Of a DNA stretch of 64,000 nt, positions 15,713 through 47,901 are shown in pieces. The stretch's first letter is position 1; each line of letters starts with the position of its first letter. Under the pieces are notes generated by a model. It ran no database searches and was not told the DNA's origin. It saw only the letters and a program-made list of their open reading frames with translations. This DNA is from Mayamaea pseudoterrestris (taxonomy: Eukaryota), in contig BROI01000001.1 of assembly GCA_027923505.1 (NCBI GenBank), positions 2,418,001 through 2,482,000 on the forward strand, read 5' to 3'. The position numbers and the translations under genes are program-made.

Positions 15713-15926
15713 CGACGTGGTGAGATGGAGCTGATGAAGGGAAGAAGAAAAGGAAACGAATGATGGTCGATGAGAGGGCGGCGATGTTGATGGATCTTTC
15801 TGTCGCATCGTTACTTGTTTCTGTCGCATCGTCACTTGCTGACGTGACGAAACGCAGAGACTCGCGCAACCGAAGATCTGCGATCCGTGAAGTGTCGCAT
15901 GCAGGCCAAGCCAGCCGCATTGCCTC

Positions 15927-20554: not shown

Positions 20555-20768
20555 CGACGTGGTGAGATGGAGCTGATGAAGGGAAGAAGAAAAGGAAACG
20601 AATGATGGTCGATGAGAGGGCGGCGATGTTGATGGATCTTTCTGTCGCATCGTTACTTGTTTCTGTCGCATCGTCACTTGCTGACGTGACGAAACGCAGA
20701 GACTCGCGCAACCGAAGATCTGCGATCCGTGAAGTGTCGCATGCAGGCCAAGCCAGCCGCATTGCCTC

Positions 20769-26307: not shown

Positions 26308-29300
26308 TGTCACAATGACGATCTAGTCCAGTCGCTTGACGCGAACCTAGACGTCGCCGGGGGCGCACGAGCATAGTACTCGAACCTCCGTTGCGGTACC
26401 AGAAAAGACATCTACTCACAACTACGTCATTGAAATATTGCATGTGTGCCAGCCGCAGGCACGATTAAACAAGATTAGTATTCACTATCGTGAATGGTCT
26501 TGAAAGAGCCATCTGATCAATCGCTCTTTCTCGACCGATCGTAAATCAACTCACTTTCTAGAGAACTGCTTAATCAACTAGCGTTTTGTAGGATAAGACC
26601 CCTGTAGGATAAACCAAGGTAAAGGACTGATCATCCCGCTCACTTGGAAACCGACTACAGAGGGTGAGGAATCGTTGCAGCCGTACGAACTGGAACTGCA
26701 TCGTGTCAGATCACACAGTCTTGGTCTTTACAATCAACTCTCTCGGGCGCTGGTGACGACCACTCCCGTCGTTTCGTTGCACACTACATTGGCAGCGGAC
26801 ATCCCTCGTTCATTTCCTGTCCGAGGCTTCAATCTACAATAGTCCGGCAGACGGAGGGATTGAAGACCGAGTCGAATTGCAAGCATCGCTCGGATAGAAT
26901 CGACTTCCTCGATTATTCTCACGGTATATATTCATCCCGTACCAATCAATCAACAACATGACAGTCGTCGAAGAAGAACCTCCCGTCGGACCCAATGTCA
27001 CGCAAGATGACGCGGAAGACAACTCGCTCGCCGTCGGATTGAAAAGCATTTACAAGCTGAAGACCGTCAACAACGACAAGTTCATGAAGCTTCCAGTCAT
27101 CGTCGCCATCAAGTCACTCCTCCCGGACGGACGCCTACTCACGGAGCCATTCCTAATGCTGACCATCAAGGACATCGAGTCGGTACTGAAGGAATCCAAA
27201 ACGCACATCACGGTTATTCGAACCATTACCCGCCTTCGTCAATGGGCATCGGAAGAGCGCGAACTCAAGGAATGGGCGACGCTCACATTCGCAGCACTCA
27301 TCAAAGCGACCGAATCGCCCGAAGAGTCTCTATTCCAAAGCGACATGAGTCGAATTCAACGAGTCAGCTCGACGGACGTTCCAGAGAAGTCCGAGGCCGA
27401 GAAGTACAAAGCTCGCGTCCGAGTCGACACCAAAGCATACACCGAGTTCAAAGACGAGTACAAATTCCGTCAATGGTGGCTCAAGACGTTCGCAACGGCC
27501 AAGAACCAAGGCATCGAGCGAGTCTTCGATCCGGATTTCAACCCGACAACGCTTTCGCCCGAAGATCTCGAGGTATTCAAAGCGCAAGAAGCCACAGCAT
27601 TCGACATCATCACTTCATACTGCAAAGTCGCCAACTGCATCCCGATCATTGGCCACGGCCACAGGGCGGGTCGGCCCACGAGTGTTTCACGGAAAGGAAC
27701 AAGATGTACTTGACGGGCAAGAACGCCGAGCGCGCAGCACAGCGAGCCGAGTCGAAAGTTCGCGACATGAAACTGACGAACGACCACGGCAGCACGTACA
27801 CTGCGTGGTTCACTCAATGGGAGAATGCCTTGCTCGATTACGAAGATTATACCGGCGAAACAGTCCCCGACGCGACGCGCAAGAAGTGGTTGTCCGAATC
27901 GGTTCGCTGGAACGACGCCTTTCGCCAAGAAATCAGTTCGGCGAGTCGTATCCTCAACGCGCAAGGTCAAGATCAAAGCTTCGAAGACTGGTACAAGCAG
28001 CTCATCGAGTTCGCTCGCGATACCGACGACGTCAAAGCGGCACGCAAACGCCAAATGAAGATCCACCAATCCATCCAACAAGCAAGTACTCCACCGACCG
28101 GAGGCACTCCACCGACTAGCGGCAACACTCCAAGCAGCGGCCAAGGCGGAAACGGTCGTGGAAATGGCAGCGGACGCGGAACCGGTCGCGGTTCTGGACC
28201 GCGGTGGACGCGGCGGCCGAGGTAACTTCGGGCGAGGTGGTGGACGCGGACAGTGCACAATCCTTCTGCAGCATCGAACCGTCGAGTCGAACCGGATGTA
28301 TGGTTCTCTCGGAGGAGCAACGCGAAGCTCACAAGGCAGAAACTCGCCGAATCCGAGAAGCGGAACGTGCGCGCCTGCAGCTGAACGCAAGCCAAGCCAG
28401 CACGAACAACACTAATACACCACCAACTCCACAAATTCAGCTTCCACCGGCGAATACGACGGCGATGTCAACCATGTCGGCGATTACTCAGCCTACAGTC
28501 GGAACTACACCAGCACGTGGAACCGCCATGCGCGCGTTTCAGTCTCAGCAACAAGGCTCGATCGCTCAAGGAAGCCAGCCATCTACTCCACCAGTGTATC
28601 AAGCACGAGTCGGCGACGTTACATACAACATGTATCGTGCCAACGCAACCAACGTCACGCGTCGTTCTACAAACCATGTCGCTACACATAACGTATCCTA
28701 CGCAGATGCGCTTATGGGTATGAATACTCCGGCAACCGAAGGGCCACACGCGTCACAGTTCCATGTTACTCGTGCAATTACGTCTCGAAGCCCGTCCATG
28801 ATGGATCGCGGTGCCAACGGTTCGATCGCTGGTAAGGACATGATTTGCTTGGATCGATCGACGACTCAGTTCGCCGACGTTACCGGAATCGACAATCACA
28901 TGATGCAAGGACTACCCATCGGAACATTCGCCGCCAAGATCTGGACGACGGAAGGGAACCGACGCGACCATTCATTCGGTCGTTCAGCTCGAGGACTTCG
29001 GAAACAAGGTATTCGACAAGGCAAGCGCACTTGGCGGACGGCAGCTCATGATTACACCCGAAGGAGCATTGATCCCATTCACGGTCCAGAACGGTTTGGT
29101 CCATTTGAAGATGCATCATTTCACCGACGCCGAGTTCGACACATTGCCGCACGTCGTCATGACGGCAGACACGCCTTGGGATCCGTCAAAGTACGATGGA
29201 GACCTTAATGACGATTCGATTCAAGCGGAAATTGAAGCCGCGACGGACGATCACGAAGCGCCAACACTACTAGTCAACAACACCCAAGTCAACGGAAACG

Positions 29301-32203
29301 CGCAAGACGAATATCCCGAAGACCTTTCAGTCGAAACACTCAACGTCGTCTCATGGAATGGACTCGAAACCCACGAGTGGGAGCACTTCAGCGACGAGTC
29401 GGACCCTATGCAGGTCGAAACCGAGGGTCCATCCGAGCGCATTGCCGACATTGTACCCGATGACGCTTCTTACAACACGAACCCACAACAGGATGACATT
29501 TCACTACCCTCACTACTCTCACGCGGAACCATATCGACATCCGGATCAAGCCATGCTCAGAACCCCAACGACGCAACGTTCGAATACGAAGACACTGCCG
29601 GGGAAATGTACGATCCGTACGAGCTGCAGGTCAATGCCGCAATTGTAGAAGCTGGAGGCAATCCATATTCTGGACTAGCCGGCCGACCGGCACGCACTGT
29701 GGTTCCTACGCGACCAGATTACCAAATGCTTCGTCCCAACTTCGGATTTCTACCCACCGATCGTATCAAGGAGACTCTCAAGAACACTACGTTCCAGAGA
29801 AGTCCGAGGCCGAGAAGTACAAAGCTCGCGTCCGAGTCGACACCAAAGCATACACCGAGTTCAAAGACGAGTACAAATTCCGTCAATGGTGGCTCAAGAC
29901 GTTCGCAACGGCCAAGAACCAAGGCATCGAGCGAGTCTTCGATCCGGATTTCAACCCGACAACGCTTTCGCCCGAAGATCTCGAGGTATTCAAAGCGCAA
30001 GAAGCCACAGCATTCGACATCATCACTTCATACTGCAAAGTCGCCAACTGCATCCCGATCATTGGCCACGGCCACAGGGCGGGTCGGCCCACGAGTGTTT
30101 CACGGAAAGGAACAAGATGTACTTGACGGGCAAGAACGCCGAGCGCGCAGCACAGCGAGCCGAGTCGAAAGTTCGCGACATGAAACTGACGAACGACCAC
30201 GGCAGCACGTACACTGCGTGGTTCACTCAATGGGAGAATGCCTTGCTCGATTACGAAGATTATACCGGCGAAACAGTCCCCGACGCGACGCGCAAGAAGT
30301 GGTTGTCCGAATCGGTTCGCTGGAACGACGCCTTTCGCCAAGAAATCAGTTCGGCGAGTCGTATCCTCAACGCGCAAGGTCAAGATCAAAGCTTCGAAGA
30401 CTGGTACAAGCAGCTCATCGAGTTCGCTCGCGATACCGACGACGTCAAAGCGGCACGCAAACGCCAAATGAAGATCCACCAATCCATCCAACAAGCAAGT
30501 ACTCCACCGACCGGAGGCACTCCACCGACTAGCGGCAACACTCCAAGCAGCGGCCAAGGCGGAAACGGTCGTGGAAATGGTAGCGGACGCGGAACCGGTC
30601 GCGGTTCTGGACCGCGGTGGACGCGGCGGCCGAGGTAACTTCGGGCGAGGTGGTGGACGCGGACAGTGCACAATCCTTCTGCAGCATCGAACCGTCGAGT
30701 CGAACCGGATGTATGGTTCTCTCGGAGGAGCAACGCGAAGCTCACAAGGCAGAAACTCGCCGAATCCGAGAAGCGGAACGTGCGCGCCTGCAGCTGAACG
30801 CAAGCCAAGCCAGCACGAACAACACTAATACACCACCAACTCCACAAATTCAGCTTCCACCGGCGAATACGACGGCGATGTCAACCATGTCGGCGATTAC
30901 TCAGCCTACAGTCGGAACTACACCAGCACGTGGAACCGCCATGCGCGCGTTTCAGTCTCAGCAACAAGGCTCGATCGCTCAAGGAAGCCAGCCATCTACT
31001 CCACCAGTGTATCAAGCACGAGTCGGCGACGTTACATACAACATGTATCGTGCCAACGCAACCAACGTCACGCGTCGTTCTACAAACCATGTCGCTACAC
31101 ATAACGTATCCTACGCAGATGCGCTTATGGGTATGAATACTCCGGCAACCGAAGGGCCACACGCGTCACAGTTCCATGTTACTCGTGCAATTACGTCTCG
31201 AAGCCCGTCCATGATGGATCGCGGTGCCAACGGTTCGATCGCTGGTAAGGACATGATTTGCTTGGATCGATCGACGACTCAGTTCGCCGACGTTACCGGA
31301 ATCGACAATCACATGATGCAAGGACTACCCATCGGAACATTCGCCGCCAAGATCTGGACGACGGAAGGGAACCGACGCGACCATTCATTCGGTCGTTCAG
31401 CTCGAGGACTTCGGAAACAAGGTATTCGACAAGGCAAGCGCACTTGGCGGACGGCAGCTCATGATTACACCCGAAGGAGCATTGATCCCATTCACGGTCC
31501 AGAACGGTTTGGTCCATTTGAAGATGCATCATTTCACCGACGCCGAGTTCGACACATTGCCGCACGTCGTCATGACGGCAGACACGCCTTGGGATCCGTC
31601 AAAGTACGATGGAGACCTTAATGACGATTCGATTCAAGCGGAAATTGAAGCCGCGACGGACGATCACGAAGCGCCAACACTACTAGTCAACAACACCCAA
31701 GTCAACGGAAACGCGCAAGACGAATATCCCGAAGACCTTTCAGTCGAAACACTCAACGTCGTCTCATGGAATGGACTCGAAACCCACGAGTGGGAGCACT
31801 TCAGCGACGAGTCGGACCCTATGCAGGTCGAAACCGAGGGTCCATCCGAGCGCATTGCCGACATTGTACCCGATGACGCTTCTTACAACACGAACCCACA
31901 ACAGGATGACATTTCACTACCCTCACTACTCTCACGCGGAACCATATCGACATCCGGATCAAGCCATGCTCAGAACCCCAACGACGCAACGTTCGAATAC
32001 GAAGACACTGCCGGGGAAATGTACGATCCGTACGAGCTGCAGGTCAATGCCGCAATTGTAGAAGCTGGAGGCAATCCATATTCTGGACTAGCCGGCCGAC
32101 CGGCACGCACTGTGGTTCCTACGCGACCAGATTACCAAATGCTTCGTCCCAACTTCGGATTTCTACCCACCGATCGTATCAAGGAGACTCTCAAGAACAC
32201 TAC
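26308..32203 (+). mobile_element. Truncated CoDi-like Ty1/Copia LTR retrotransposon (probable 5' LTR, gag, protease; no integrase core, RT or 3' LTR)
   Basis: Begins TGTCACAATG where the satellite breaks; the putative LTR runs to about 26716. Gag starts at 26958. Protease MMDRGANGSIAG, IHSVVQLEDFGNKV, LPHVVMTADTPWDP and LRPNFGFLPTDRIKETL are typical diatom CoDi motifs. Frameshifts and an internal deletion near 28955. Confidence 0.85.
27376..32203. repeat. 2,413-bp tandem duplication inside the CoDi-like element (27376-29790 / 29789-32203)
   Basis: ORFs recur at +2413. AC microhomology at the junction. One visible SNP (C28168 / T30581). Confidence 0.95.
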
Positions 32204-33353: not shown

Positions 33354-36300
33354 TACCTTAAGGTAGCCTCGGAGATACCCGAGTCAGCATGGCTGAACCA
33401 GCCCAAGGAATCGTTCCTGCAAGGACTGACGAGGAGCGATGGAAAGATGAGCGCTGGAACAAGAAGCCTGCGGCGATCCCCAAGTTGGATAAAGACAAGA
33501 AGTTTTGGACTTGGAAGATGGAGATCGAGGCGTGGCAAGTTGCGCATGACTTGGACAAGGTAATGGATCCAAGCGGATGGGCGGACCTGCCGACGCGAGA
33601 AGAACAGCCAAATCAATCGTACGCCAACAGGCGAGCCGTCAAGATGAACAAGGTAGCCATGGCGCAGTTAATCATGGCGCATGGCGACGGAGACAAGGGA
33701 GCGGAGTTCCTCTTGATCATTACGGAATCAAGGACGGAAGCGTGGCCGACGGGCAAGGCAAGTGACGTCATGAAGAAGCTGATCGAACAATATCAGCCGA
33801 CCGATCAAGTTGCCCAATTAAAGTTGATGGATGACCTTAGCAGTCTCTCGATGCGAGACAGCCAAAATCCAACCAAGTTGTTCCTAAAGGTAGCAGAGCT
33901 GGAGAGTCAGTTTCTAGCGTCAGGAGCAAAGCTCGAGGAGCGTCAAGTCGTTCCTCATATCATCAAGGCCTTACCGGAGCGGTACAGCGGACGAGTGTCG
34001 GCCATGTTTGAAAAGCACAAGGAGCTAACCAAAGCAATGATACGCGAAGGCGTAGAGGCAGAATATCGCCTCCAAGTGGCGAAAGGCGCCATCAAGGAAG
34101 ACGACGATGAAGATGAAGATGAACAAGCTCTCTTTACTCAATCGTCGATCGGAAAACCCAAAGGGCTGCTGGCTTTGCGGCAGCACGGAACACAGGAAGA
34201 AGGACTGCCCAAAGTATAAGGGAACGGCGGCGGCGGCGGAGGCAACAGAAGCAGGTCGAAGAAAAGATTCCAAGGAACGTGCGACGAATGCGGAAAGCAA
34301 GGGCACAAGAAAGAAGACTGCTTTCATCTTGAGAAGAACGCCTCCAAGCGCCCCGCTTGGTTCAAGAAGATCTTGGAGAAGAAGAATGAGTCGGCAAATG
34401 TCACTTGTGACGACGAATTCTTCATCATGGCAACCAAGGGCGTCGCGGAGGTCGACGACGAGTTGTGGTTTGCCGACAACGGGTGCACGAGCGCCATAAC
34501 GAAGTCAAAAGAAGCAATGTATGAGACAAGGGCAGCAACAAGCGTCGATAAGATCAAAGTCGGGAACAGTGAATACGTACATCCCGAGCTTGTTGGAAAG
34601 TTGCGAGGCACAATCGTGGATAAGGACGGCAAGAAGGTTGGAAACTTGTCGTTGGATCGAGTCAGTTACTCGGAGTCAGCCGTCGGCAACCTCATTCCAG
34701 TCGGAAAGATGATAAAGGAAGGTTGGACGCTGAAGCAGTCAATAGATGGACTGGAGTTAAGCAAAGGAAAGCGCAAGTTAGTCTTCGATGTGACGGTACA
34801 AGTCGGCAGCGGAGTCTTCCACGCTATGCGAGTCAAAAGGACGCCGACGACGGCAGAACAAGCAACAGTCGCGGCAAACGCAAACAGAGTCGTTTCTTAC
34901 CAACAAGTGCATGAAGAGTTTGGCCACATGGGCAAAGCAGCGACTCGAGCGACAGCGAAGCACTTAGGATGGACGCTAACTGGAAAGATGAATCCATGCG
35001 TCTCTTGGGCGTAGCGAAGCGCCGAGAAGGATATCGCTCGAAAGGAGCCAGCCGAGAAGGCAAAGACACCAGGACGACGCATCTACTTGGACTTGACGAC
35101 GCCAAAGGATAAAGAAGGCAAGAATCTGCCAGGCAAGTTGAACGGTCGATGCATCGTGGACGAGGTGACAGGATTCAAAGTTGTCGACTTCTTCGCAACC
35201 AAGAACGCAATGGTGGAACCAACCTTGAACCTGCTTAGAGAATGGAAGCACAAAGGAAGGGAGGTTGAGTTTCTAAGGATGGATAACGCTGGGGGAACAA
35301 GAGTCTTGCGAGGCAAGCCAAGGCAGAGGGACTCGTCAAGCGCATTGAATGGACAGCGGCAAACACGCCGCAACAGAACCAAGCAGAAACCTGCTGGCGC
35401 ACACTCAAAGGGCGTTCAAGAGCTATAGCATACAGAGCAAACGTACCAGAGAAGCAGAGGCAGAAGTTCTTTGCAAGGCTAGTAAAGCATGCTAGCAAGT
35501 TGGATGGACTCACCATGGTCCAGTTGAATGGGGAAATGAAAACACGCTATGAGCACTTTGGCGAAAAAGATTCCACGCTTTGTTAAGTACATGAGGCGTT
35601 GGGGCGAGGCGTGCGTGCTGGTACAAAGGTGTCAAGAAACCGGGAATGGAATTTGACAAAGGCGCAGTCGGCATGTTGGTAGGCTTTCCGGATGACCATG
35701 AGGGAGACGTCTATCAAGTTTGGAATCCCAAGACGAATAGAGTTGCAGAGGTTAGAGATGTAACGTTCCTAAACAAGTGGTATTTCCAAGAAACGATCAA
35801 GGAGATAGCCGACTTAAAGGAGAAGGAAGGCATCGATTGGGATCTTGACACCCCAAGAGGTGCGACTCACGACGCGCAAGCCAGCGACAGTGAGGAAGAG
35901 GAGAGTGTCAACGGTGACGTTGACAGCGTACATCAGCAAACGAGCGCGCTGTCACAAAGATTGACCATGGGGAAGGAAGAACAATAACTCGATCCGGGCG
36001 CGTTGTAATACCAAGGCAACGATTGATCGAGCAAGTAACGCTGGCGTATCAGCTGGCGACCCAAGAATGCGCGTTGGCGATGCTGGACTGTGAGCTTACG
36101 CTCAACGCGGCAATCATCGAGGAGATGGAGGAAGGCGAGTGCTACGCGCCGGCGCGCGACGAGTTAGCGTGTTGGCGCAGGGATTGGCGATGGCATTGCG
36201 CATACATCAGAGCTACAAGTAATGAAGTTCAGCGAGGCAATGGCGAAGGGACCAGTCGCTGAATGGCAGAAGGCTGTTGACGACCAATGATCGAATGCTC

Positions 36301-38949: not shown

Positions 38950-40797
38950 ATGCCAATACCATCGACTCGCATGGCAAGGAGGTTCGCCCTCGTGCTCCTC
39001 ATGTCACAATCAATTGTCGCATTCTCGCCAATGCATGCGCGGCTACCATTGTCTCATACATCGACTGCACTCAATGGGAGCTTCAAACGAGCAAGGTATT
39101 TTTTCAGAACGAATAGTCGACTGCTAAAGACCTTTCCAGCAAAGTTAAACGGCGAAACTGACATTGGAAAGGAATCTACATATCGGCTGACGCAAAGTCC
39201 AAAATATTTGGAACAGATTGATCGATACAGAGGATACAGGCGCGCTATCGAGGAACGGAAAAGCAGCAATGCCACGGAAACGACTCGCTTCTTTCGCAGA
39301 ATTGTATCCGACGCAATGATTGACGACTGTCGGCGTCGCTCCAAAGTCTATGTATCAGACTGGACGGATGCTTCCAAAAACGTGAAAAAGGTGGTGCCAG
39401 CGATTCTCTTTCTTTACTTTTCATGTTTATCGCCGGCCGTGAGCTTTGGAACCATCGCGACGCAGATTACGGGCGGATCGATTGGTATCACAGAGTTTCT
39501 CCTAAGTTCCGGCTTGAGTGGAATGGCGTACGCCATTTTGTGCGGCCAGCCCATGGCCTTTATCGCGCCGACGGGTTTGACACTGGCATTCATATCGGGT
39601 CTCTACAGGTTCTGCTCGGTGAATATGCTTCCATTCTTTCCAATCTATGCCTGGGTCGGGCTCTGGACCAGCTTCTTCTTCGTATTACTTGGTCTTGGAG
39701 GATCTAGTCAGTTCATTCGATATTGCACCCGGTTCACCGATGAAATATTCAACGCATTGCTTTCAGTGAATTTCATATACGAGGCGGTCTCGTCACTGCG
39801 ACGAAATTTTGAACAGGCTGATCCGTCAAACTTGTCAATGCCATTTATTGCATTAGCCATGGCGTTGAGCACATTTTGGGCCACAATGAAAGTAACAGCC
39901 TTTGAAACGAGCAAATACTTTAACCAAAAAGCGCGAACGATCATTAAGGATTTTGGTCCAGTTACCATCTTCGTCCTCATGTCATGCCTTAATCAGCTTC
40001 CCTTGATCAAGAAGTTTGCCGTTCCAACGCTCACACTCCCGGCATCATTTGAACTTGCTGGTGGACGAAATCTTTTAATACCTTTAAACGCCATTCCCTT
40101 GCAAATGAGGCTTTTGTGCGCCGTTCCAGCAGTACTTTTGAGTGCGCTATTCTACATGGATCAAAACATTAGCGTCAGAGTCGTCAACAACGAGGACAAT
40201 CAGCTAAAGAAGGGCGCGGCGTACAATCTAGACATGGTTGCCTTGGGCTTGATTACTGGTGTCTTGTCACTCGTTGGTTTGCCCTGGATGTGCGGGGCGA
40301 CGGTGCAGTCGCTCAATCATATACGGGCCATGACCGAAACGCGCTTCAACGAAACAACCGGACAAGCTGAGGTCGTGGGAGTGCTGGAGACGCGAGTGAC
40401 TGGGTTCAGTGTTCATGCACTCATCGCCGCGACAGTCTTCATCTTGCCGGTACTAGGTTTTGCGCCAATACCTGTTGTAGGAGGTGTTTTCCTTTTCTTG
40501 GGTCGTAAGCTAATGTCAGGAAACTCTTTCCTGAGGCGGGTGCGCGATACATTTGTGCAAGAGAACAGACTCCCCGACGACCACCCCATACGATATATTG
40601 GCAGGAAGAAGACCACTATATTTACTTCGGTTCAGCTCCTATGTCTCATGGGTCTTTGGGCGTTCAAACAAAACAGCTCGACAGCTATCTTGTTCCCCGG
40701 TGTCATCGGTCTTTTGATGGGGATTCGAGCGTTTGCTCTGCCGCGTATATTCACCGAGGATGAGTTGAACGATCTGGGAGATCCTACACCGGCATAG
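38950..40797 (+). CDS. SLC4: SLC4-family bicarbonate/anion transporter with plastid-type presequence
   Basis: Motifs LFLYFSCLSPAVSFG, GQPMAFIAPTG, TRFTDEIF, FYMDQNIS, LKKGAAYNLD, PWMCGATVQSLNH and ETRVTG. Signal peptide ends IVA-FSP. Start at 38950 or 38971. Confidence 0.92.
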   Translation: MPIPSTRMARRFALVLLMSQSIVAFSPMHARLPLSHTSTALNGSFKRARYFFRTNSRLLKTFPAKLNGETDIGKESTYRLTQSPKYLEQIDRYRGYRRAIEERKSSNATETTRFFRRIVSDAMIDDCRRRSKVYVSDWTDASKNVKKVVPAILFLYFSCLSPAVSFGTIATQITGGSIGITEFLLSSGLSGMAYAILCGQPMAFIAPTGLTLAFISGLYRFCSVNMLPFFPIYAWVGLWTSFFFVLLGLGGSSQFIRYCTRFTDEIFNALLSVNFIYEAVSSLRRNFEQADPSNLSMPFIALAMALSTFWATMKVTAFETSKYFNQKARTIIKDFGPVTIFVLMSCLNQLPLIKKFAVPTLTLPASFELAGGRNLLIPLNAIPLQMRLLCAVPAVLLSALFYMDQNISVRVVNNEDNQLKKGAAYNLDMVALGLITGVLSLVGLPWMCGATVQSLNHIRAMTETRFNETTGQAEVVGVLETRVTGFSVHALIAATVFILPVLGFAPIPVVGGVFLFLGRKLMSGNSFLRRVRDTFVQENRLPDDHPIRYIGRKKTTIFTSVQLLCLMGLWAFKQNSSTAILFPGVIGLLMGIRAFALPRIFTEDELNDLGDPTPA

Positions 40798-40840: not shown

Positions 40841-43294
40841 CTATATTTTAAGTACATTAATTGCCTCCATGATATCTGCTTTACATACGATACAATCTTC
40901 GGTCTTACTTTCCCGGCGCATGCATCGGAAAACCGATTCACGGGTGATGCCCTCTAGATCGGCAGCGCTAGCGTTCTTTGCGACGAGTTCAGTGGCTAGC
41001 GAATATAGATCCACGTCGTCGCAGAGAGGAATGCGCGAGTATTGATGCTGCAGAATCTCCCATGTATCCTCAATAGCAGGAAGCGAAAGCTCAATGTGCG
41101 CTTCGAGACGACCCGGGCGAAGTAAAGCCGCGTCAAGGCTATCTAAGCGATTTGTGCACGCAACGACCAGCACATTGTCCTTCAAACCTGACGAAACGCC
41201 GTCCATTTCATTCAAAAGTGTCGACAGCAGACGAGAATAAACATCAGTTGACTCACCAGACGTCCCTCGGTTATTTGCTATCGAGTCAAGCTCGTCAAAC
41301 AAGAGACAACAAGGAGATGCTGCCCTGGCCCTCGCAAATAGCGATCGAATGATTTCTTCCGATCCTCCCAGCCATTTGTCCAGCACGTCCGCAGCGCGAA
41401 CTTGAATCATGGGTAGGCCAAGTGATGAACCCAAACAAGTCGCCGCCAGCGTTTTCCCACACCCCGAGCGGCCATGGAACAAGACACCAGACGGTGGCGA
41501 GATTGCGTGAGTCGTTGCCGAAAGTGCTGTCCCGTTTTCAAAATGCCGCCTCCATGGAGCCACCACAGTGCGAAAGATCCTCTTTTTCAACGAAGCAAAA
41601 CCACGGAACCTCTCCCAACTTCTCTGATGTATTTCAATCCAATCGAGTTGAGATTCATTCTCCAGGTACAAAACTGGCTTTTTGACATCCAGAGTGGCGA
41701 GTTGAGAAGGACGGCATGCACGGGCGGCACTTTTCCAAGTGTCCCAATTCATTAATGCCGCTTCATCTTCAGCAGCGTCCATACACGCGTCAGCTACCAT
41801 CCGATGCAAGTCTCCTGCCACGCATCCTGCCGTTGCTACTGAGAGCAGCTCTGACCAATTTTGACGTGTGGCTTGCTCCAAATCGATATGCTCAAGGAAA
41901 TAGCACAAAATTATTTCTCGTTGGCGCTGGGTAGGCGGGCTCATTTCAATTGCCTTTTCTAGCCGACCAGCTTTGAGCAAGGATGGCGGCAGCCTTAATT
42001 TATTTTGTCCGGCGCCAATAATTCTGGCGTTTGCAGCGACAAGTCGATCAATCGCCTGCAAAACGCAGTTCAATAGCAATCTCCGTTCGTAGTCCATTGC
42101 TACATGTTCCTCACTCGCCTCATCTAGTTGCAATACGTCCAAATCGTCAATCATCCAGCACGTTTTGTTTGAATACTTTGTCGGCATGAGCAGGTTTAGT
42201 AGCGACTCTTCCGACGAGCTATTTGCGTGTAGCAGCATTTCCTGCAACGATACATAGTGGACGAGCATTTTTTGTTGCCTTTGCAGATTGCCGCGTATGT
42301 ATTGCAATAGGCGAGACTTGCCGACTCCGGCGCACCCCAGTAGGAACAAGCCTGAAGGCGAAGCCGGACCTTGCAAGCAAAGAAGTTGCTCGATAGACTC
42401 CGCGAGTGGTTCATACCCTGGGCAGGATGATGTTTGTTGGCCGGGAGAGGAGCCATACTCAGTACTTTCTGCTTCTGTGGATAGACCATCGTCAGGCGAA
42501 GCAGTCATAATGACTTGAAAAGTGTCGCTCGTTCCAAGCCTGTAAGCTACCTTGTCGTCGCTACTGCCATTGACAGAATGTACGACGGCGACAATGAAGT
42601 TCTCATCCGACTCTATAGATAGAACAATCGATGTTTTGGCCATGATATATCGGCCCTGCAAGGCACTCTTGATAGCAAAAGTCAAATCGCCATCATATAG
42701 AGTAGCAACGTCAGGGTCGGCATAGAGGCACTGCATTTGGATGCAAATGTCGGCGTCAATCTCACCAATCTCGACTTTTTCGACAGACCAACAAGAGGAA
42801 GATTTAAGTTCTTCTGCCGGACACGACGGAATCAACATTCCAGGATACGGAATGATCGGAGCGATTGTCATTGCGTCATTGTCGAGACAGTCGTCAAGAT
42901 TCATTTCGTTCGTACAAAGCACTTCTGCTGATTGCGTAAGAAAGTCGAAGAGAACGTGATGTAGTCGGAGCTCTCGCTCGTTGCTGGATTGTTGCTTTCG
43001 CGGTATCAGCTGCATGACACACCTCGTAAGCTCATGATACTCATCGTTTCCTCGTCCAAGAAGCGAAATCACGACAACGCCAAATGGCTTGGCTCCAAGT
43101 CGATCAAAGATTGAAACTGGAGCTTCTGCCAAGCCCAGCCAGCTCGAATTGCAGCTCATAACGCTTGTGCGTACTCTTCGAGCAAAATTGAAAAGAGACA
43201 GGTCCCGTTGTAGTACTTGTAGGTGGTCGGAAAGTGAATGGGAAAAAAGCGAGATCAAAATTTCACTCAGTCGTACCGTTACTAACTGCGACAT
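40841..43294 (-). CDS. CDC48/AFG2-like double AAA+ ATPase
   Basis: D1 has GCAGVGKS and WMIDDLD. D2 has GRSGCGKT, LLFDELD and the SRH TNRLDSLDAALLRPGRLE. Confidence 0.85.
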   Translation of the reverse strand: MSQLVTVRLSEILISLFSHSLSDHLQVLQRDLSLFNFARRVRTSVMSCNSSWLGLAEAPVSIFDRLGAKPFGVVVISLLGRGNDEYHELTRCVMQLIPRKQQSSNERELRLHHVLFDFLTQSAEVLCTNEMNLDDCLDNDAMTIAPIIPYPGMLIPSCPAEELKSSSCWSVEKVEIGEIDADICIQMQCLYADPDVATLYDGDLTFAIKSALQGRYIMAKTSIVLSIESDENFIVAVVHSVNGSSDDKVAYRLGTSDTFQVIMTASPDDGLSTEAESTEYGSSPGQQTSSCPGYEPLAESIEQLLCLQGPASPSGLFLLGCAGVGKSRLLQYIRGNLQRQQKMLVHYVSLQEMLLHANSSSEESLLNLLMPTKYSNKTCWMIDDLDVLQLDEASEEHVAMDYERRLLLNCVLQAIDRLVAANARIIGAGQNKLRLPPSLLKAGRLEKAIEMSPPTQRQREIILCYFLEHIDLEQATRQNWSELLSVATAGCVAGDLHRMVADACMDAAEDEAALMNWDTWKSAARACRPSQLATLDVKKPVLYLENESQLDWIEIHQRSWERFRGFASLKKRIFRTVVAPWRRHFENGTALSATTHAISPPSGVLFHGRSGCGKTLAATCLGSSLGLPMIQVRAADVLDKWLGGSEEIIRSLFARARAASPCCLLFDELDSIANNRGTSGESTDVYSRLLSTLLNEMDGVSSGLKDNVLVVACTNRLDSLDAALLRPGRLEAHIELSLPAIEDTWEILQHQYSRIPLCDDVDLYSLATELVAKNASAADLEGITRESVFRCMRRESKTEDCIVCKADIMEAINVLKI

Positions 43295-43530: not shown

Positions 43531-46332
43531 TCACTCTTCCATAATACTGTTTTCGGTCGCTTCAGCATAGCTGGTGCTCGCTTCCTCTGTCAATACCGGC
43601 AAAAGGCCAACCTCATCCTTCCATTGTCGGGCTTGCGTTGCTGGAAGATGCGTTAGCATTCGCTCGTATTGCTCCTTCACAGAAGCAAAAGATGATGCAT
43701 CCGGACTATTCCATAGCGAGGCAAATAGTTGCTTATCGCCGCCGTCCTTGACTACTGTCGAATCGACCGCGCGAACAGCTTCCAGAGTCACCTTGACTAA
43801 GGTGTCGCGAGGAAGAATCAAATTACCAAAGGCCGACCAATCGTTCAAAAGTCGAACAAGCTGCTCATGTGCACTTGTACACGCAGAGCCGCGACTGTCA
43901 GCGCGCAACCAACCCAGCCATGACTGAATAACAGAGTCTCGTGTGCTTTTCGGAAGTTTAGCCTTGTGGCGTAACAGAGTCTTCGACAAGCAGACGAAGA
44001 ACGCACGGTGGTCACACAAAGTAGGCAATAAAAGCTGTACACCAAGGGCAAGCTTCGGAAATGTCAGGGCAAGCGAAGATTCGTTTCCAAGACCAGGCTG
44101 GCACAAAAATACAATCGCGCCTTGAAGCAGAGCAGCAGCCACTTCCATTTGGTCCCCAGCTGCCCACATTTCTGTATTGATCTGCTCGGCTTCAATGCTC
44201 ACTGACTGAGCAGCAGCATGCAAGTCTCCACCTGGCGAGATTCGCCGATCGAGTTCGGCTTCAAGAAAAAGTCGGAGAACCAGGGGACTAATCTGACGAA
44301 GTGTTGCGAAAGGCACATTTGTCGGGTCATTATCATTGCCCAGCTTTTGCATGCCGCTGTCTGGAATGAGATATCGCCTGCCCGACACGGCGCATATTTG
44401 CCTTGACCAGCGAGCTAGATGCAAAAGCTGAAGCAACGATGGAGCTGCGACATGTGCTGCTGGAATGGACGTTCCGTTTAGCGTGCCATGTCGAAGATCT
44501 CGTTGGGTTCTGGCCAAAACGATTCGAACAACGAAAGGATCTGCCAGCAACATGGACGCAAGAGCTGGCATACTGGGATCTTGATCATCTTTTGAACTCT
44601 TTTTCCTTTTACGAGTTGCGGCAGGCAGGGGCGATATATCAATTTCCTCAGTTGAAGTCTTTCGTTTTCGCTCTGAATCGTCCGTAAAATTCCGTTTCGC
44701 AGTTTCACTTTGGTAGAGGCGCTTGGCCTGAGGCAGAATCTCATCGCGAAATACCTTTCCCTGTCGGAGTGCCTCGCCACGAAACCACTGGCCTGCTGGC
44801 CCGCGATTGTAGTCGACACAATTCTTGAATAATAGTCTGACATCCTTGTCCCATTCTTCAATTGAACTGTATTTGTTCTTTTTCACTTTCGCTTCCATTT
44901 GCGTAAGACTGATAGGCTTGCTAATAATTTTGCTGTAGCCAGGCGCAATCGCATCTGTGACAGGGTTTAAAAACAAACTTTGCGGATCGGCGTCCTTCAT
45001 TGCGTCAATTCCGGCAGTAATGACCTTGTTGAGCTGTCGCAACGCAGCAAGTGAGATCTCTTCTTGTATTTGCACTTGAGACAACCCATCACTTTGGGCG
45101 TTACTCTCCGCTGCCTTGCTCGACGTAGTATCGTCATCGGACAGGAAAATTAGAGTCAGCGTCTGCTGAATCTTTTTCACAGCCGCATCGGAAATATTTC
45201 CTTCTTGAACACAATCGTCTAGCGTACGTGCCAATGCAGAGAGATGCTGGTATCCTCTCGGCAAAGGTCCTCCAGCTGAAAGCAGAATGTCCGCGACCAA
45301 TGTGCATCGCAGATTGCTAGCGCCGCCGATTTGACCCATGGTTATACTTCCATGCTCCGCCATGAGGATTGAAAATAGCGAGTAGAGTAGTTTGGGACGA
45401 AAGGTGGATGCCGTACCAACAGTGTCACATAGTAGGCTGCGTATGGCTGCAATGGCTTTACCAGAGTCGAGGACTTCGATACCTTCCTTTGCTACACAGC
45501 TGCCGGCCATTGTTGAAGCAGGAACTGTTAGCGCACGCCTCTGTTTGGTAAGCACTCGTCTTTCCCGAACAGTTGACACAAACAGTTGATCCGCCATATC
45601 TACTAAAACTTTGTTGTTGCAATATTGAGAAATCAACGGTTCAAGAGTTTCGTAGAGAAGCGTCGTTTGATATTCGTCAAGTGGTCGACTGTCCGCATTA
45701 GAACTCGAAACGCGACTCTCCCAATCCGCTTCCCAACACAGGCGTTTTAGAAGAGGCGACAGTGGTTCAAACAAATCCTTGTGCCGCAGTTTGCTATCTT
45801 GATCTCGCAATGTGAGCGCTTGCAGCACTGGCAAAGGAGTATCTTCACCCAGTTGCTTCAAGACGGCCCAAAGAACAGGCCTCATTTCAGTTTGGGTCGT
45901 CGCAAATGTCAAACAGGACTGGAGTAAACTCAGTAAAGCTTCAGTGTTTTTCGATTTCCTAATTTCTTCCTCCAATTGCTTCATAAGCGTATCGCTGATT
46001 CGTTTATGCACTTCATAGTGCGACACGCCAAGGTGCGAAAGAAAGGCAATGGCCGGATCACTATCCAATGGCTCCTCCGTCTGCTTGTCTTGACTGCGCG
46101 TCTTTTTCATTTCATGTCGAGGAGTGGTACCAAAGGCTCGCGCCATCATGGTATGCAGCGAATGCTCCTGCTGAAAGGCTTGAATAGTGTCGGCAGGGTT
46201 GGTGGAGCGACGAAGCTCGCGGCGGAGTTCCCTCTTGGCGACGACGGAGGAAAAAAATGTCGTGAGATTATTCTCTGCGACTTCACTCTTTGTCTCGGAG
46301 GCATCTTTGCTTGTCGGAGTTGTTGCTGACAT
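43531..46332 (-). CDS. Bromodomain protein with an N-terminal NELF-B/COBRA1-like helical domain
   Basis: Single 933-aa ORF. Bromodomain LFLNPVTDAIAPGYSKIISKPISL..DVRLLFKNCVDYN. N-terminal blocks match NELF-B by eye (see findings). Confidence 0.8.
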   Translation of the reverse strand: MSATTPTSKDASETKSEVAENNLTTFFSSVVAKRELRRELRRSTNPADTIQAFQQEHSLHTMMARAFGTTPRHEMKKTRSQDKQTEEPLDSDPAIAFLSHLGVSHYEVHKRISDTLMKQLEEEIRKSKNTEALLSLLQSCLTFATTQTEMRPVLWAVLKQLGEDTPLPVLQALTLRDQDSKLRHKDLFEPLSPLLKRLCWEADWESRVSSSNADSRPLDEYQTTLLYETLEPLISQYCNNKVLVDMADQLFVSTVRERRVLTKQRRALTVPASTMAGSCVAKEGIEVLDSGKAIAAIRSLLCDTVGTASTFRPKLLYSLFSILMAEHGSITMGQIGGASNLRCTLVADILLSAGGPLPRGYQHLSALARTLDDCVQEGNISDAAVKKIQQTLTLIFLSDDDTTSSKAAESNAQSDGLSQVQIQEEISLAALRQLNKVITAGIDAMKDADPQSLFLNPVTDAIAPGYSKIISKPISLTQMEAKVKKNKYSSIEEWDKDVRLLFKNCVDYNRGPAGQWFRGEALRQGKVFRDEILPQAKRLYQSETAKRNFTDDSERKRKTSTEEIDISPLPAATRKRKKSSKDDQDPSMPALASMLLADPFVVRIVLARTQRDLRHGTLNGTSIPAAHVAAPSLLQLLHLARWSRQICAVSGRRYLIPDSGMQKLGNDNDPTNVPFATLRQISPLVLRLFLEAELDRRISPGGDLHAAAQSVSIEAEQINTEMWAAGDQMEVAAALLQGAIVFLCQPGLGNESSLALTFPKLALGVQLLLPTLCDHRAFFVCLSKTLLRHKAKLPKSTRDSVIQSWLGWLRADSRGSACTSAHEQLVRLLNDWSAFGNLILPRDTLVKVTLEAVRAVDSTVVKDGGDKQLFASLWNSPDASSFASVKEQYERMLTHLPATQARQWKDEVGLLPVLTEEASTSYAEATENSIMEE

Positions 46333-46743: not shown

Positions 46744-47901
46744 ATGCCAAGCAAGAGCTCATCAAATGACAGTCTCGTCGAAAACAACGACGAAGCTCCA
46801 GTCCGAAAGGACAAGAAGTTTAAACGCATCAGAGGCCTGCTGGGTGGCGATAAGAAGGATAAGAAGCACGGAAAGGGAAAGGGAAAGAACAAGGGCAAGC
46901 ACGCTGACGACGACGCAACCTACAATGTCAATGTCGACGAACGCTCGATTGCGACGGCACCCGCGAAACACGACGAACCTCTTCGAAGAGGTTCCGATGC
47001 CAAGCGCTCGTACATGCTCAAGGTGGTGCTTCTCTTGATGGATCCGAAATCCCGTAGGTTTGAACTGCTGCAACTGGAATTTGACTCCCTCAAGGCGTTG
47101 GTGTCCGATGTCCTCGCCCAAATTCCGGTTTCAGTCACGGAAGATGTGCTTCGCGAGCAAACCTACCTTGGTATTTGCGGGCATGACGGAAAGGAAATGC
47201 CTTTGAACGCTTTGTTGTCGGAGTTTTGCAAGGGTAGTGAAGTGTTTGTTGCAGTACCCAAAGGAGTGGCGGCCAAGGAGTGTGCCCGCCTGGCAGTGCC
47301 TATTTTGACCGACGACAAGGTGGTGAACATGTTGCGGTCCAGTGACATTAACATGAATGAATGGCTCGACAACAAGAACAAGAAAACTAGCAAAAAGGCT
47401 GTGAAACTGTCTTCATCTTCAGGAAAAGTCATTGCGACTGACGATGATTCACACAAAGGTGGGAAGTCTGCCGGTCTTATTGCAGTCATTTTGGCAGCTA
47501 TCGTTTTGCAGGTTTATCATTTATACATTTCTGCGCCAATCAAGCCAGGTCATATTGTTTCGCCTGGTATTCATCTTAGCAAGTGCGGTGTCTTGTCCAT
47601 TTTGCCCACATGCTCGAATGAATACATGACATTCGCGGATGAAGAAACAATCGTCATGAAAGATGCAGCCGATAAAGTTTTGTGGTCTATCAGGGGAAAC
47701 ACTTGCAAAAAGGGAGATAAGGGATGTATTCGTGGCATGAAGGTCGGCGAGGATGGGGAGCTTATCATTGGCGGCAAAGTCGTTGACAGTGTACGCACCT
47801 ATACAGATGATGTTAAGCTTTCGCCATGGCCATTTGCCGAGGAACCCAAGATTCGAATCAAGCGCGACACTCCAGAGTCTTCAAAAAGCTCTGGTGATTA
47901 A
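46744..47901 (+). CDS. Uncharacterised single-pass membrane protein
   Basis: 385-aa ORF with a globular LLMDPKSRRFELLQLEF domain, a TM segment AGLIAVILAAIVLQVYHLYI and a Cys-containing beta-rich C-terminus. Confidence 0.7.
   Translation: MPSKSSSNDSLVENNDEAPVRKDKKFKRIRGLLGGDKKDKKHGKGKGKNKGKHADDDATYNVNVDERSIATAPAKHDEPLRRGSDAKRSYMLKVVLLLMDPKSRRFELLQLEFDSLKALVSDVLAQIPVSVTEDVLREQTYLGICGHDGKEMPLNALLSEFCKGSEVFVAVPKGVAAKECARLAVPILTDDKVVNMLRSSDINMNEWLDNKNKKTSKKAVKLSSSSGKVIATDDDSHKGGKSAGLIAVILAAIVLQVYHLYISAPIKPGHIVSPGIHLSKCGVLSILPTCSNEYMTFADEETIVMKDAADKVLWSIRGNTCKKGDKGCIRGMKVGEDGELIIGGKVVDSVRTYTDDVKLSPWPFAEEPKIRIKRDTPESSKSSGD

What the first reader, a model, noticed from the sequence alone, without database searches (positions are those of the whole stretch)
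43531..46332. NELF-B/COBRA1-like pausing-factor domain fused to an intact bromodomain
Seen: one uninterrupted ORF with an N-terminal helical region (about aa 35-400), a bromodomain (about aa 430-540, keeping the GY and the acetyl-lysine-binding YN), an NLS-like RKRK and a helical C-terminus. Collinear by-eye matches to human NELF-B, recalled from memory: NPADTIQAFQQEHSL~EPLKAIEQFQTENGV, AIAFLSHLGVSHYEVH~ALPFLDLHGTPRLEFH, MRPVLWAVLKQL~LQPVVMCVMKHL, LKRLCWEAD~VKRQIWQDN, LEPLISQY~VSPLLKQY and RCTLVADILLS~YCTLRAELLMS. Established: NELF enforces promoter-proximal Pol II pausing in animals, is absent from yeasts and land plants, and animal NELF-B has no bromodomain. Inference: diatoms may have a NELF-like complex wired directly to histone acetylation, a chromatin-reading pausing system I do not know to have been described.
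Basis: partly seen in the sequence, partly recalled or inferred. Interest (0 to 1): 0.82.

Follow-up and report, generated by a model that had tools for sequence, protein, structure and literature searches.

The report
Diatom NELF-B with inserted bromodomain
This diatom gene encodes a relative of NELF-B, the scaffold of the factor that pauses RNA polymerase II in animals, with an acetyl-lysine-reading bromodomain inserted at its hinge, a layout shared by diatoms, oomycetes and Nannochloropsis.

Summary
Window 43531..46332 (-) is one 933-aa ORF with a Pfam bromodomain (E 6e-19).

Pfam's COBRA1 model misses this protein and all 28 orthologue N-halves scanned. A profile of the diatom N-halves nevertheless hits only NELF-B among all PDB sequences (6 of 6 hits, E 8.6e-11). 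It aligns to non-stramenopile NELF-B at hhalign E 2e-34, and the N-half model matches NELF-B chains best (Z 14.6, next unrelated 7.0).

The "helical C-terminus" is the rest of NELF-B (hhalign E 1e-9 to profile columns 300-520; Z 11.6 to human residues 328-549). So the bromodomain is an insertion of about 196 aa at the N-module/hinge boundary (near human residue 295), not an end-to-end fusion.

The same insertion point (COBRA1 profile position about 187/188) is seen in oomycetes (Achlya, Saprolegnia, Aphanomyces, Albugo) and in Nannochloropsis, whose protein NCBI already names "negative elongation factor b". The layout is therefore stramenopile-wide.

NELF-B outside animals is published. My searches found no paper on the bromodomain insertion. 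Acetylation-coupled pausing remains an inference: NELF-C/D, Pol II association and acetyl-lysine binding were not testable here.

Verdict: a new variant of a known kind.

The parts
43531..46332 (-). Complete single-exon CDS, 933 aa plus stop (P0001): NELF-B orthologue with an internal bromodomain
   Evidence: In one search, 157 proteins had E<=0.001 and the best 120 were listed; they cover 61-100% of the query (mostly 90% or more) at 40-67% identity.
46252..46332 (-). aa 1-27, low-confidence, variable N-terminal leader
   Evidence: pLDDT below 50 for residues 1-24. This stretch is variable in alignment A1.
45148..46251 (-). aa 28-395, NELF-B N-terminal module (about human NELF-B residues 9-295)
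   Evidence: hmmsearch of A2 against PDB sequences: 6 of 6 hits are NELF-B, E 8.6e-11. hhalign against 13 canonical NELF-B: Prob 99.9, E 2.1e-34, P0001 19-395 to profile 8-290. Foldseek top 4 are NELF-B, E 2.4e-4 to 9e-3. VIA Z 14.6, 241 residues aligned, model 89..401 to NELF-B 41..295.
45046..45147 (-). aa 396-429, acidic/Ser-rich linker at the start of the insertion
   Evidence: pLDDT below 50 for 400-418. This stretch is variable and gapped in A1.
44698..45045 (-). aa 430-545, bromodomain (Pfam core 443-510) with PGY 464-466 and YN 508-509
   Evidence: Pfam E 6e-19. Closest solved relatives are PBRM1, TAF1 and BRD7/9. Key residues are invariant or nearly so in 27 orthologues.
44578..44697 (-). 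aa 546-585, basic linker at the end of the insertion, with NLS-like RKRK (555-558) and RKRKK (574-578)
   Evidence: A KRKK block is conserved in A1. Nuclear-import function is inferred, not tested.
43597..44577 (-). aa 586-912, NELF-B middle and C-terminal modules (about human NELF-B residues 300-550)
   Evidence: hhalign of A3 against canonical NELF-B: Prob 96.4, E 1.1e-9, aa 592-832 to profile 300-520. The control A3 against A2 gives E 0.11. VIA second look: NELF-B 9j0n_V Z 11.6, rmsd 3.4, 178 aligned, fragment 50..312 to 328..549; 8jj6_A Z 11.4; next row 9.2. In the Albugo and Nannochloropsis orthologues, Pfam COBRA1 positions 188-274 and 188-245 lie after the bromodomain.
43534..43596 (-). 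aa 913-933, acidic, variable C-terminal tail
   Evidence: Variable in A1. The last blocks of the C-half model have lower pLDDT, 53-57.

Best explanation
The gene encodes the diatom orthologue of NELF-B (COBRA1), the HEAT-like scaffold subunit of negative elongation factor. A segment of about 196 residues has been inserted into it: acidic linker, bromodomain, then a basic NLS-like linker.

Shown here:
- Both halves of the protein are homologous to, and collinear with, NELF-B. The N half matches about human residues 9-295 and the C half about 300-550.
- The insertion sits at the boundary between the N-terminal module and the middle 'hinge' module of NELF-B.
- The same insertion point occurs in diatoms, eustigmatophytes and oomycetes, so the insertion predates their divergence.
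- The acetyl-lysine-binding Asn and the ZA-loop Tyr are conserved.

Inferred:
- The protein is nuclear.
- It forms a core NELF with a NELF-C/D (TH1) partner on early-elongating Pol II.
- The looped-out bromodomain docks that complex on acetylated histone tails of promoter-proximal (+1) nucleosomes. Pausing or early-elongation control would then be coupled to promoter acetylation.
- The bromodomain may supply the nucleosome contact that the metazoan-only NELF-E helix provides in animals.

My odds are about 0.93 for the homology and insertion anatomy and about 0.4-0.5 for the acetylation-coupled NELF function.
For: N half:
- A profile of 28 N-halves hits only NELF-B among 177,635 distinct PDB sequences (6 of 6 hits, E 8.6e-11 to 1.2e-8).
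- hhalign against 13 canonical NELF-B proteins gives Prob 99.9, E 2.1e-34, 278 columns.
- The Foldseek top 4 are NELF-B (E 2.4e-4 to 9e-3; the next hit is E 0.29).
- VIA gives Z 14.6-12.1 for five NELF-B chains and 7.6 for a sixth; the best unrelated row is 7.0.

C half:
- hhalign E 1.1e-9 to NELF-B profile columns 300-520, against a control of E 0.11.
- NELF-B chains rank 1-2 in the VIA second look, Z 11.6 and 11.4, matching residues 327-552.

Bridging orthologues:
- Of 32 distant hits of the N-half profile scanned with Pfam, 25 carry COBRA1 and 7 of those also carry a bromodomain.
- COBRA1 profile positions up to about 166-188 lie before the bromodomain and positions from 188 lie after it.
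- Diatom and oomycete/eustigmatophyte proteins align over 748 columns, E 4.8e-51.
- Named carriers are Achlya, Saprolegnia, four Aphanomyces species, Albugo, and Nannochloropsis oceanica, whose protein is named 'negative elongation factor b'.

Bromodomain: the key residues are conserved.

Context from papers (passages read):
- NELF-B has N (85-291), middle hinge (291-438) and C (438-519) modules (PMC4940160).
- The NELF-BE lobe is the downstream edge of the paused complex, next to the +1 nucleosome (PMC11881899).
- NELF-B and NELF-C/D are widespread and ancestral, while NELF-E is found only in metazoans (bioRxiv 10.1101/2023.02.19.529146).
Against: - Pfam COBRA1 does not match this protein. 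It matches 0 of 28 orthologue N-halves at E<=10. None of the 120 listed diatom orthologues carries PF06209 in the precomputed column.
- The C-half evidence is moderate. A profile search against PDB sequences gave 0 hits. Foldseek gave nothing below E 0.069. NELF-B was not among the top 50 of the Foldseek-independent scan, whose best row was Z 9.5 to a designed repeat. Z 11.6 for a helical repeat lies inside the range the tool warns may reflect only a common arrangement.
- Nothing here shows a NELF-C/D partner, Pol II or SPT5 association, acetyl-lysine binding, nuclear localisation or any pausing phenotype.
- No genome is held for this window and no RNA run was listed.
Confidence: 0.6

Rival explanations
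1. It is a true NELF-B descendant that no longer works in a NELF pausing complex. In stramenopiles the scaffold has been repurposed as a bromodomain-bearing chromatin adaptor in some other nuclear complex, for example a remodeller, an acetyltransferase complex or an Integrator-like assembly.
For: The diatom sequences have diverged so far that Pfam COBRA1 fails. NELF-A's Pol II-binding domain and NELF-E are reported only in or near animals (passages read). The language-model search gave only sub-threshold leads, at 0.84-0.86, to Integrator, Mediator and TH1 scaffolds. No partner could be examined.
Against: Both NELF-B modules and their order are retained under purifying selection across diatoms, eustigmatophytes and oomycetes. 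Chivu et al. report that species with only NELF-B and NELF-C/D have higher pausing indices than species without NELF (passage read). The core therefore appears functional outside animals.
Confidence: 0.25
2. It is a BRD7/BRD9-type SWI/SNF-associated bromodomain protein, as the public annotation of the Fistulifera and Seminavis orthologues says.
For: Source names are 'bromodomain-containing protein 7/9' and 'Bromodomain-containing protein 7'. BRD7 and BRD9 bromodomains are among the closest solved ones, E about 5e-12.
Against: Similarity to BRD7/9 is confined to the bromodomain: full-length BRD7 chains match only query 422-519. No other BRD7/9 domain appears in Pfam at E<=10. The 700 or so flanking residues are homologous to NELF-B.
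Confidence: 0.03
3. It is a gene-model or assembly artefact that joins separate genes for a NELF-B-like protein and a bromodomain protein.
For: No RNA run for this organism was listed, so the transcript was not seen directly.
Against: The ORF is a single open frame of 2799 nt. The same order occurs in the listed orthologues, including transcriptome-derived complete ORFs (MMETSP entries) and 30 or more metagenome contigs with one continuous tblastn segment across all three parts. NELF-B homology continues after the bromodomain, which a read-through of two genes cannot produce.
Confidence: 0.02

Closest known systems
Animal NELF-B / COBRA1 (Pfam PF06209; PDB 8JJ6_A, 6GML_V, 7PKS_V, 9J0N_V, 8W8E_V)
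   Same: Homologous and collinear over both halves of the fold. The N half matches human residues 41-295 (Z 14.6, 21% identity). The C half matches 328-549 (Z 11.6, 12% identity). Profile matches are E 8.6e-11, 2.1e-34 and 1.1e-9.
   Different: A roughly 196-aa insertion holding a bromodomain and NLS-like basic runs sits at the N-module/hinge boundary. The sequence is too diverged for Pfam COBRA1. The partners NELF-A (HDAg-like domain) and NELF-E are reported only in or near animals.
Stramenopile COBRA1+bromodomain proteins already in databases: Nannochloropsis oceanica 'negative elongation factor b' (P0274), Achlya hypogyna OQR84672.1 (P0229), Saprolegnia diclina SDRG_01019 (P0265), Albugo laibachii CCA18079.1 (P0248), Aphanomyces spp. 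(P0266-P0269)
   Same: The architecture and the insertion point are the same (COBRA1 profile about 187/188). They align with the diatom family over 748 columns, E 4.8e-51.
   Different: In these proteins Pfam still recognises COBRA1; in diatoms it does not. Most are named only 'Bromo domain-containing protein' or hypothetical. My searches found no paper discussing them.
BRD7/BRD9 (family IV bromodomains, SWI/SNF subunits)
   Same: The bromodomain sequence type is similar, E about 5e-12. This is the source of the public 'BRD7/9' label on diatom orthologues.
   Different: Nothing outside the bromodomain is shared.
BRD4-P-TEFb axis in animals (recalled from general knowledge, not from a call)
   Same: It works alike in principle: a bromodomain couples promoter acetylation to the pause/release step of Pol II.
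   Different: There is no homology beyond the bromodomain.

Membership tests
NELF-B / COBRA1 | Match to the Pfam COBRA1 model (PF06209) above its gathering score | tested here: not met
   No COBRA1 hit for P0001 at E<=10, and 0 of 28 orthologue N-halves hit. None of the 120 listed diatom orthologues carries PF06209 in the precomputed column. The feature is met by orthologues of the same architecture in oomycetes and eustigmatophytes, for example P0229 at 50.8 bits, P0213 at 42.7 and P0248 at 51.2. The best-conserved block, human residues 45-135, lies largely upstream of where the Pfam model starts in other NELF-B proteins (model position 2 falls at residue 106-133). This fits the miss, so it is a sensitivity failure rather than evidence of non-homology.
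NELF-B / COBRA1 | Sequence homology of the N-terminal module to bona fide NELF-B | tested here: met
   hmmsearch of A2 against all PDB sequences: 6 of 6 hits are NELF-B, E 8.6e-11. hhalign against 13 canonical NELF-B: Prob 99.9, E 2.1e-34. In the search of 1.84 billion representatives, 25 of 32 scanned hits carry COBRA1.
NELF-B / COBRA1 | NELF-B fold of the N-terminal module | tested here: met
   Model pLDDT 77. Foldseek ranks 1-4 are NELF-B with prob 1.00. VIA Z 14.6, rmsd 5.4, 241 aligned, against 7.0 for the best unrelated chain.
NELF-B / COBRA1 | Middle and C-terminal modules of NELF-B present and collinear | tested here: met
   hhalign Prob 96.4, E 1.1e-9 to profile columns 300-520, with a control of E 0.11. 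VIA ranks 1-2 are NELF-B residues 327-552, Z 11.6 and 11.4. Pfam COBRA1 positions 188-274 lie after the bromodomain in Albugo. The support is moderate: searches found nothing on their own.
NELF-B / COBRA1 | Forms a complex with NELF-C/D (TH1) and associates with Pol II-DSIF | not testable with these tools
   No genome is held for this window, and no tool supplied a NELF-C/D sequence to search with.
Bromodomain (PF00439) | Pfam match above the gathering score | tested here: met
   E 6e-19, 68.2 bits against a cut-off of 21.7, aa 443-510.
Bromodomain (PF00439) | Acetyl-lysine-anchoring Asn at the end of helix B and the ZA-loop Tyr retained | tested here: met
   Y466 (in PGY) is invariant and N509 (in YN) is at least 90% conserved in 27 orthologues. 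Both align with the equivalent residues of PBRM1 and TAF1 bromodomains. The equivalent Y and N are kept in 6 of the 8 oomycete and eustigmatophyte rows; P0217 and P0257 end before the Asn. Which residues bind acetyl-lysine is recalled knowledge.
Bromodomain (PF00439) | Binds acetylated lysine | not testable with these tools
   This needs peptide-binding assays.
BRD7/BRD9 | Homology outside the bromodomain (the BRD7/9 C-terminal region) | tested here: not met
   Only three Pfam families appear at E<=10, and none is a BRD7/9 domain. Full-length BRD7 chains match only query 422-519.

The most novel reading that the evidence does not exclude
Stramenopiles run an acetylation-gated form of promoter-proximal control. 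A two-subunit core NELF (NELF-B with NELF-C/D) is tethered by the NELF-B bromodomain to acetylated tails of the +1 nucleosome. In this role the bromodomain replaces the nucleosome and DNA contact made in animals by the metazoan-only NELF-E helix. The pausing factor itself would then read promoter acetylation. This would be an independent, ancient solution to coupling chromatin state to early elongation, predating the diatom-oomycete split.
Probability: 0.3. Interest if true: 0.8.

Novelty: new variant of a known kind. Interest (0 to 1): 0.62.

Why it matters
NELF is still often called metazoan-specific; the introduction of PMC11881899 says so. A recent survey argues instead that a NELF-B plus NELF-C/D core is ancestral to eukaryotes.

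This finding adds two points:
- Diatoms do have NELF-B. It is hidden from Pfam and labelled BRD7/9 or hypothetical in public annotation.
- A whole major eukaryotic lineage (diatoms, eustigmatophytes, oomycetes) carries a chromatin reader built into the hinge of the pausing scaffold.

In animals the NELF-B/E lobe faces the +1 nucleosome. That gives a concrete hypothesis for how pausing and promoter acetylation could be coupled without NELF-E. The hypothesis can be tested in transformable models: Phaeodactylum, Thalassiosira, Nannochloropsis and Phytophthora.

The finding also corrects an annotation across more than 100 diatom sequences.

Tried and rejected
- Single-sequence searches of the N part (aa 1-420) and the C part (aa 585-933) against PDB sequences gave only chance-level hits, E 0.94 and 0.87.
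- Pfam on P0001 and on the 28 N-halves gave no COBRA1 hit.
- The protein-atlas search of aa 1-420 gave scores of 0.84-0.86, below the 0.9 mark. The hits were Integrator, Mediator, EPG5 and TH1 scaffolds, which are leads only.
- The C-half profile against PDB sequences gave 0 hits. Foldseek on the C-half model gave nothing below E 0.069. The Foldseek-independent scan of 48,161 chains put designed helical repeats on top (Z 9.5), and NELF-B was not in the 50 rows shown. Only the second look at Foldseek's top 1000 put NELF-B first.
- Complex prediction of the N half with the C half returned 'no answer' (score 0.00; the tool did not use my alignments). It is reported here only and used neither way.
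- Own-genome search for TH1/NELF-C/D failed because no genome is held.
- RNA evidence: no RNA holder was listed.
- Supplementary Table 1 of Chivu et al., which holds the species list for NELF subunits, could not be read. It may already list oomycete or other stramenopile NELF-B.
- Earlier scan notes held nothing for this genome.
- The BRD7/9 reading and the fused-gene artefact were rejected; see the rival explanations.
Full report
THE OBSERVATION

Window 43531..46332 on the minus strand is a single ATG-to-stop ORF of 933 aa. Pfam finds one domain above threshold, a bromodomain at aa 443-510 (E 6e-19, 68.2 bits).

A phmmer search of PDB sequences gave 411 hits at E<=10. The 60 listed are all bromodomain proteins, with PBRM1, TAF1, BRD7 and BRD9 closest.

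PGY is at 464-466, YN at 508-509, RKRK at 555-558 and RKRKK at 574-578. In 27 full-length orthologues P464, G465, Y466, N504 and Y508 are invariant and N509 is at least 90% conserved.

THE GENE MODEL

A search of the 5.8-billion-protein collection gave 157 proteins at E<=0.001, of which the best 120 are listed. They show 40-67% identity and cover 61-100% of the query, mostly 90% or more. Named ones come from pennate diatoms: Fistulifera solaris, Seminavis robusta, Nitzschia, Cylindrotheca, Epithemia and Pseudo-nitzschia. Several are complete ORFs from transcriptome assemblies (MMETSP).

All 120 carry PF00439 in the precomputed Pfam column and none carries COBRA1 (PF06209). A metagenome scan returned 80 loci. 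About 30 of them show one continuous tblastn segment running from the N-terminal region through the bromodomain to the C-terminal region, at down to 30% identity. The ORF is therefore a real, conserved single-exon gene and not a fusion artefact.

IS THE N-TERMINAL REGION NELF-B?

Single-sequence tests fail. Pfam gives no COBRA1 hit at E<=10, and aa 1-420 against PDB sequences gives only a chance hit at E 0.94.

I built an alignment of the N part only, A2. It holds the window protein plus 27 in-frame translations from metagenome loci. Pfam scanned on each of the 28 members still gives 0 COBRA1 hits.

The profile of A2, searched against all 177,635 distinct PDB sequences, returns six hits, and all six are NELF-B (E 8.6e-11 to 1.2e-8). 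The main stretch is profile 91-177 against human NELF-B 45-135. A weak collinear stretch matches 9-37.

An AlphaFold model of the N part has pLDDT 77.2. Its four best Foldseek matches are NELF-B chains (E 2.4e-4 to 9e-3, prob 1.00), and the next hit is at E 0.29. VIA-align gives Z 14.6-12.1 for five NELF-B chains, with 241 residues aligned, 21% identity, and model 89..401 matching NELF-B 41..295. A sixth NELF-B chain scores 7.6, and the best unrelated chain scores 7.0.

The same profile, run against 1.84 billion representative proteins, gives 287 hits at E<=0.001. I scanned 32 of them with Pfam: 28 of the 51 hits ranked below the diatom block, plus four diatom-like ones from higher in the list. 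Of these 32, 25 carry COBRA1, 3 carry a bromodomain only, and 4 carry nothing.

An alignment of 13 bromodomain-free COBRA1 proteins (A4) includes an amoebozoan and a rhizarian. It matches A2 at hhalign Prob 99.9, E 2.1e-34, over 278 columns, with P0001 19-395 aligned to profile 8-290. The remaining three by-eye pairs fall on conserved columns of this alignment.

The homology is therefore established. Pfam probably misses it because the best-conserved block lies mostly upstream of where the COBRA1 model begins in other NELF-B proteins. In one search, model position 2 maps to residues 106-133.

WHAT IS THE HELICAL C-TERMINUS?

Seven of the 25 COBRA1 proteins also have a bromodomain, and the Pfam coordinates are informative.

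In several proteins the COBRA1 model runs from position 1-3 to about 166-181 and the bromodomain follows:
- P0229 (Achlya hypogyna)
- P0213
- P0219

In P0270 and P0271 the COBRA1 match ends at model position 187-188, just before the bromodomain.

In P0248 (Albugo laibachii) the bromodomain is at 458-536 and COBRA1 positions 188-274 follow at residues 605-693. In Nannochloropsis P0274 the bromodomain is at 709-797 and COBRA1 positions 188-245 are at 881-938.

The bromodomain therefore sits inside the COBRA1 domain at model position about 187/188.

For the diatom protein I aligned the C parts, aa 586-933, of 23 orthologues (A3). hhalign against the canonical NELF-B alignment gives Prob 96.4, E 1.1e-9, over 205 columns, with aa 592-832 aligned to profile 300-520. 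This begins ten profile columns after the point where the N half stopped. As a control, A3 against A2, the two helical halves of the same protein, gives Prob 0.5, E 0.11.

The C-half model has pLDDT 75.4. It has no significant Foldseek match (best E 0.069). In a Foldseek-independent scan of 48,161 chains the top rows are designed helical repeats (Z 9.5), and NELF-B is not among the 50 shown. A profile search of PDB sequences gives 0 hits.

When Foldseek's top 1000 chains are re-aligned, NELF-B chains rank first and second. 9j0n_V scores Z 11.6 with rmsd 3.4 and 178 residues aligned, fragment 50..312 matching NELF-B 328..549. 8jj6_A scores Z 11.4. The next row scores 9.2.

Taken alone, this Z is within the range that helical repeats reach by chance. 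Three further lines make the assignment sound:
- the collinear hhalign match;
- the Pfam evidence from the orthologues;
- the full-length alignment of the diatom family to the oomycete/eustigmatophyte family (748 columns, E 4.8e-51).

ANATOMY

| Residues | Part |
|---|---|
| 1-27 | variable leader |
| 28-395 | NELF-B N module |
| 396-591 | insertion |
| 586-912 | NELF-B middle and C modules |
| 913-933 | acidic tail |

The insertion consists of an acidic linker (396-429), the bromodomain (430-545) and a basic linker with two NLS-like runs (546-585).

In the amoebozoan NELF-B P0235 the two aligned blocks are 9 residues apart (307 to 317). In the diatom protein they are 196 residues apart.

Crosslinking work on human NELF divides NELF-B into three regions: an N-terminal region (85-291), a middle region (291-438) proposed as a hinge, and a C-terminal region (438-519). 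The N-terminus of NELF-E is held between the N and C regions (PMC4940160, passages read). The insertion is at the N/middle boundary.

DISTRIBUTION

The COBRA1-plus-bromodomain layout occurs in:
- oomycetes: Achlya hypogyna, Saprolegnia diclina, four Aphanomyces species and Albugo laibachii;
- the eustigmatophyte Nannochloropsis oceanica, whose 1335-aa protein NCBI names 'negative elongation factor b';
- diatoms.

Plain COBRA1 without a bromodomain was seen in a rhizarian (Lapot gusevi), an amoebozoan (Ceratiomyxa) and a fungus (Coemansia).

The shared insertion point argues for one ancient insertion, before diatoms, eustigmatophytes and oomycetes diverged. I built no tree to test this.

HOW IT PROBABLY WORKS

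What is shown is a NELF-B scaffold with both modules conserved and a bromodomain whose ligand-binding residues are under purifying selection across a very deep divergence.

What the papers say (passages read; I did not test any of it):
- NELF-B and NELF-C/D form a core that is widespread in eukaryotes.
- Species with only this core have higher pausing indices than species without NELF.
- NELF-E is found only in metazoans, and the Pol II-binding HDAg-like domain of NELF-A only in animals and Capsaspora (bioRxiv 10.1101/2023.02.19.529146).
- In mammalian paused complexes on nucleosomal templates the NELF-B/E lobe forms the downstream edge, next to the +1 nucleosome. A basic NELF-E helix touches nucleosomal DNA and is needed for full pausing (PMC11881899).

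Inference: in stramenopiles the looped-out bromodomain on the NELF-B hinge tethers a core NELF to acetylated tails of promoter-proximal nucleosomes. That would couple early elongation control to promoter acetylation, and it could substitute for the NELF-E contact.

I put this at 0.4-0.5. The main rival, at about 0.25, is that the scaffold has been repurposed in another chromatin complex.

COMPARISON WITH WHAT IS KNOWN

The COBRA1-plus-bromodomain architecture is visible in database domain tables, and one Nannochloropsis protein already bears the NELF-B name.

I found no paper that mentions the architecture. The searches were:
- 'NELF' + 'diatom': 12 papers, all unrelated.
- 'negative elongation factor' + 'stramenopiles': 0 papers.
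- 'negative elongation factor' + 'Nannochloropsis': 0 papers.
- 'negative elongation factor' + 'Phytophthora': 1 unrelated paper.
- COBRA1 / bromodomain / oomycete, any two terms: none of the 15 listed holds COBRA1 together with oomycete.
- NELF-B / bromodomain / three stramenopile genera, any two terms: none of the 15 listed holds NELF-B.
- The main text of Chivu et al. has no 'bromodomain' or 'stramenopile'.
- The main text of a eukaryote-wide survey of chromatin readers has no 'COBRA1' or 'NELF'.

Supplementary tables of these papers could not be read and may list such proteins.

For diatoms, the NELF-B identity is absent from the annotations seen. These are 'bromodomain-containing protein 7/9', 'Bromodomain-containing protein 7' and hypothetical.

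VERDICT

The identification as NELF-B plus bromodomain is correct, but the anatomy is an insertion and the layout is stramenopile-wide. The functional reading is plausible and testable but unproven. This is a new variant of a known kind, with interest 0.62.

SURROUNDINGS

The neighbours are ordinary nuclear genes with no evident functional link:
- an AAA+ ATPase downstream on the same strand (40841..43294);
- a 385-aa ORF without a Pfam match upstream on the other strand (46744..47901);
- an SLC4-type bicarbonate transporter, a hybrid histidine kinase, gyrase A-like ORFs and a copia gag elsewhere in the window.

Noticed in passing
window 40841..43294 (-): An 817-aa ORF directly downstream on the same strand is an AAA+ ATPase. 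It has a strong C-terminal AAA module (PF00004 at 604-737, E 4.5e-41, plus an AAA lid) and a weaker P-loop module near residue 316.
   Followed up: partly
window 11789..14299 (+), 14783..15928 (-), 17774..19141 (+), 19625..20770 (-): This looks like a tandem segmental duplication. A full gyrase-A-like ORF (836 aa) and a second partial one (455 aa, profile positions 215-431) each precede a 381-aa ORF on the opposite strand. The first 381-aa ORF is a Methyltransf_16 lysine methyltransferase. The second was not scanned.
   Followed up: no
window 28300..29208, 30713..31621 (+) and 33389..34219 (+): Two ORFs of identical length (302 aa) without a Pfam match lie about 2.4 kb apart. A copia-type gag ORF is nearby (PF14223, E 1.2e-9). 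This is probably a repeat or transposon-rich stretch.
   Followed up: no
window 38950..40797 (+): A 615-aa ORF carries an SLC4-type bicarbonate transporter membrane domain (PF00955, E 6.7e-123).
   Followed up: no
window 5600..7522 (-): A hybrid histidine kinase (HisKA, HATPase_c, receiver) has an ethylene-receptor-like N-terminal domain (PF25487, E 9.7e-8).
   Followed up: no
public orthologues P0014, P0015, P0038, P0095, P0097: Diatom orthologues of this gene are publicly named 'bromodomain-containing protein 7/9' or 'Bromodomain-containing protein 7'. The label rests on the bromodomain alone and hides their NELF-B identity.
   Followed up: yes
P0100 (1395 aa) and P0094: Two orthologue entries carry unrelated labels: nickel-dependent lactate racemase (PF09861) together with a bromodomain, and 'YaaW'. 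These are probably merged gene models or transferred names on metagenome contigs.
   Followed up: no
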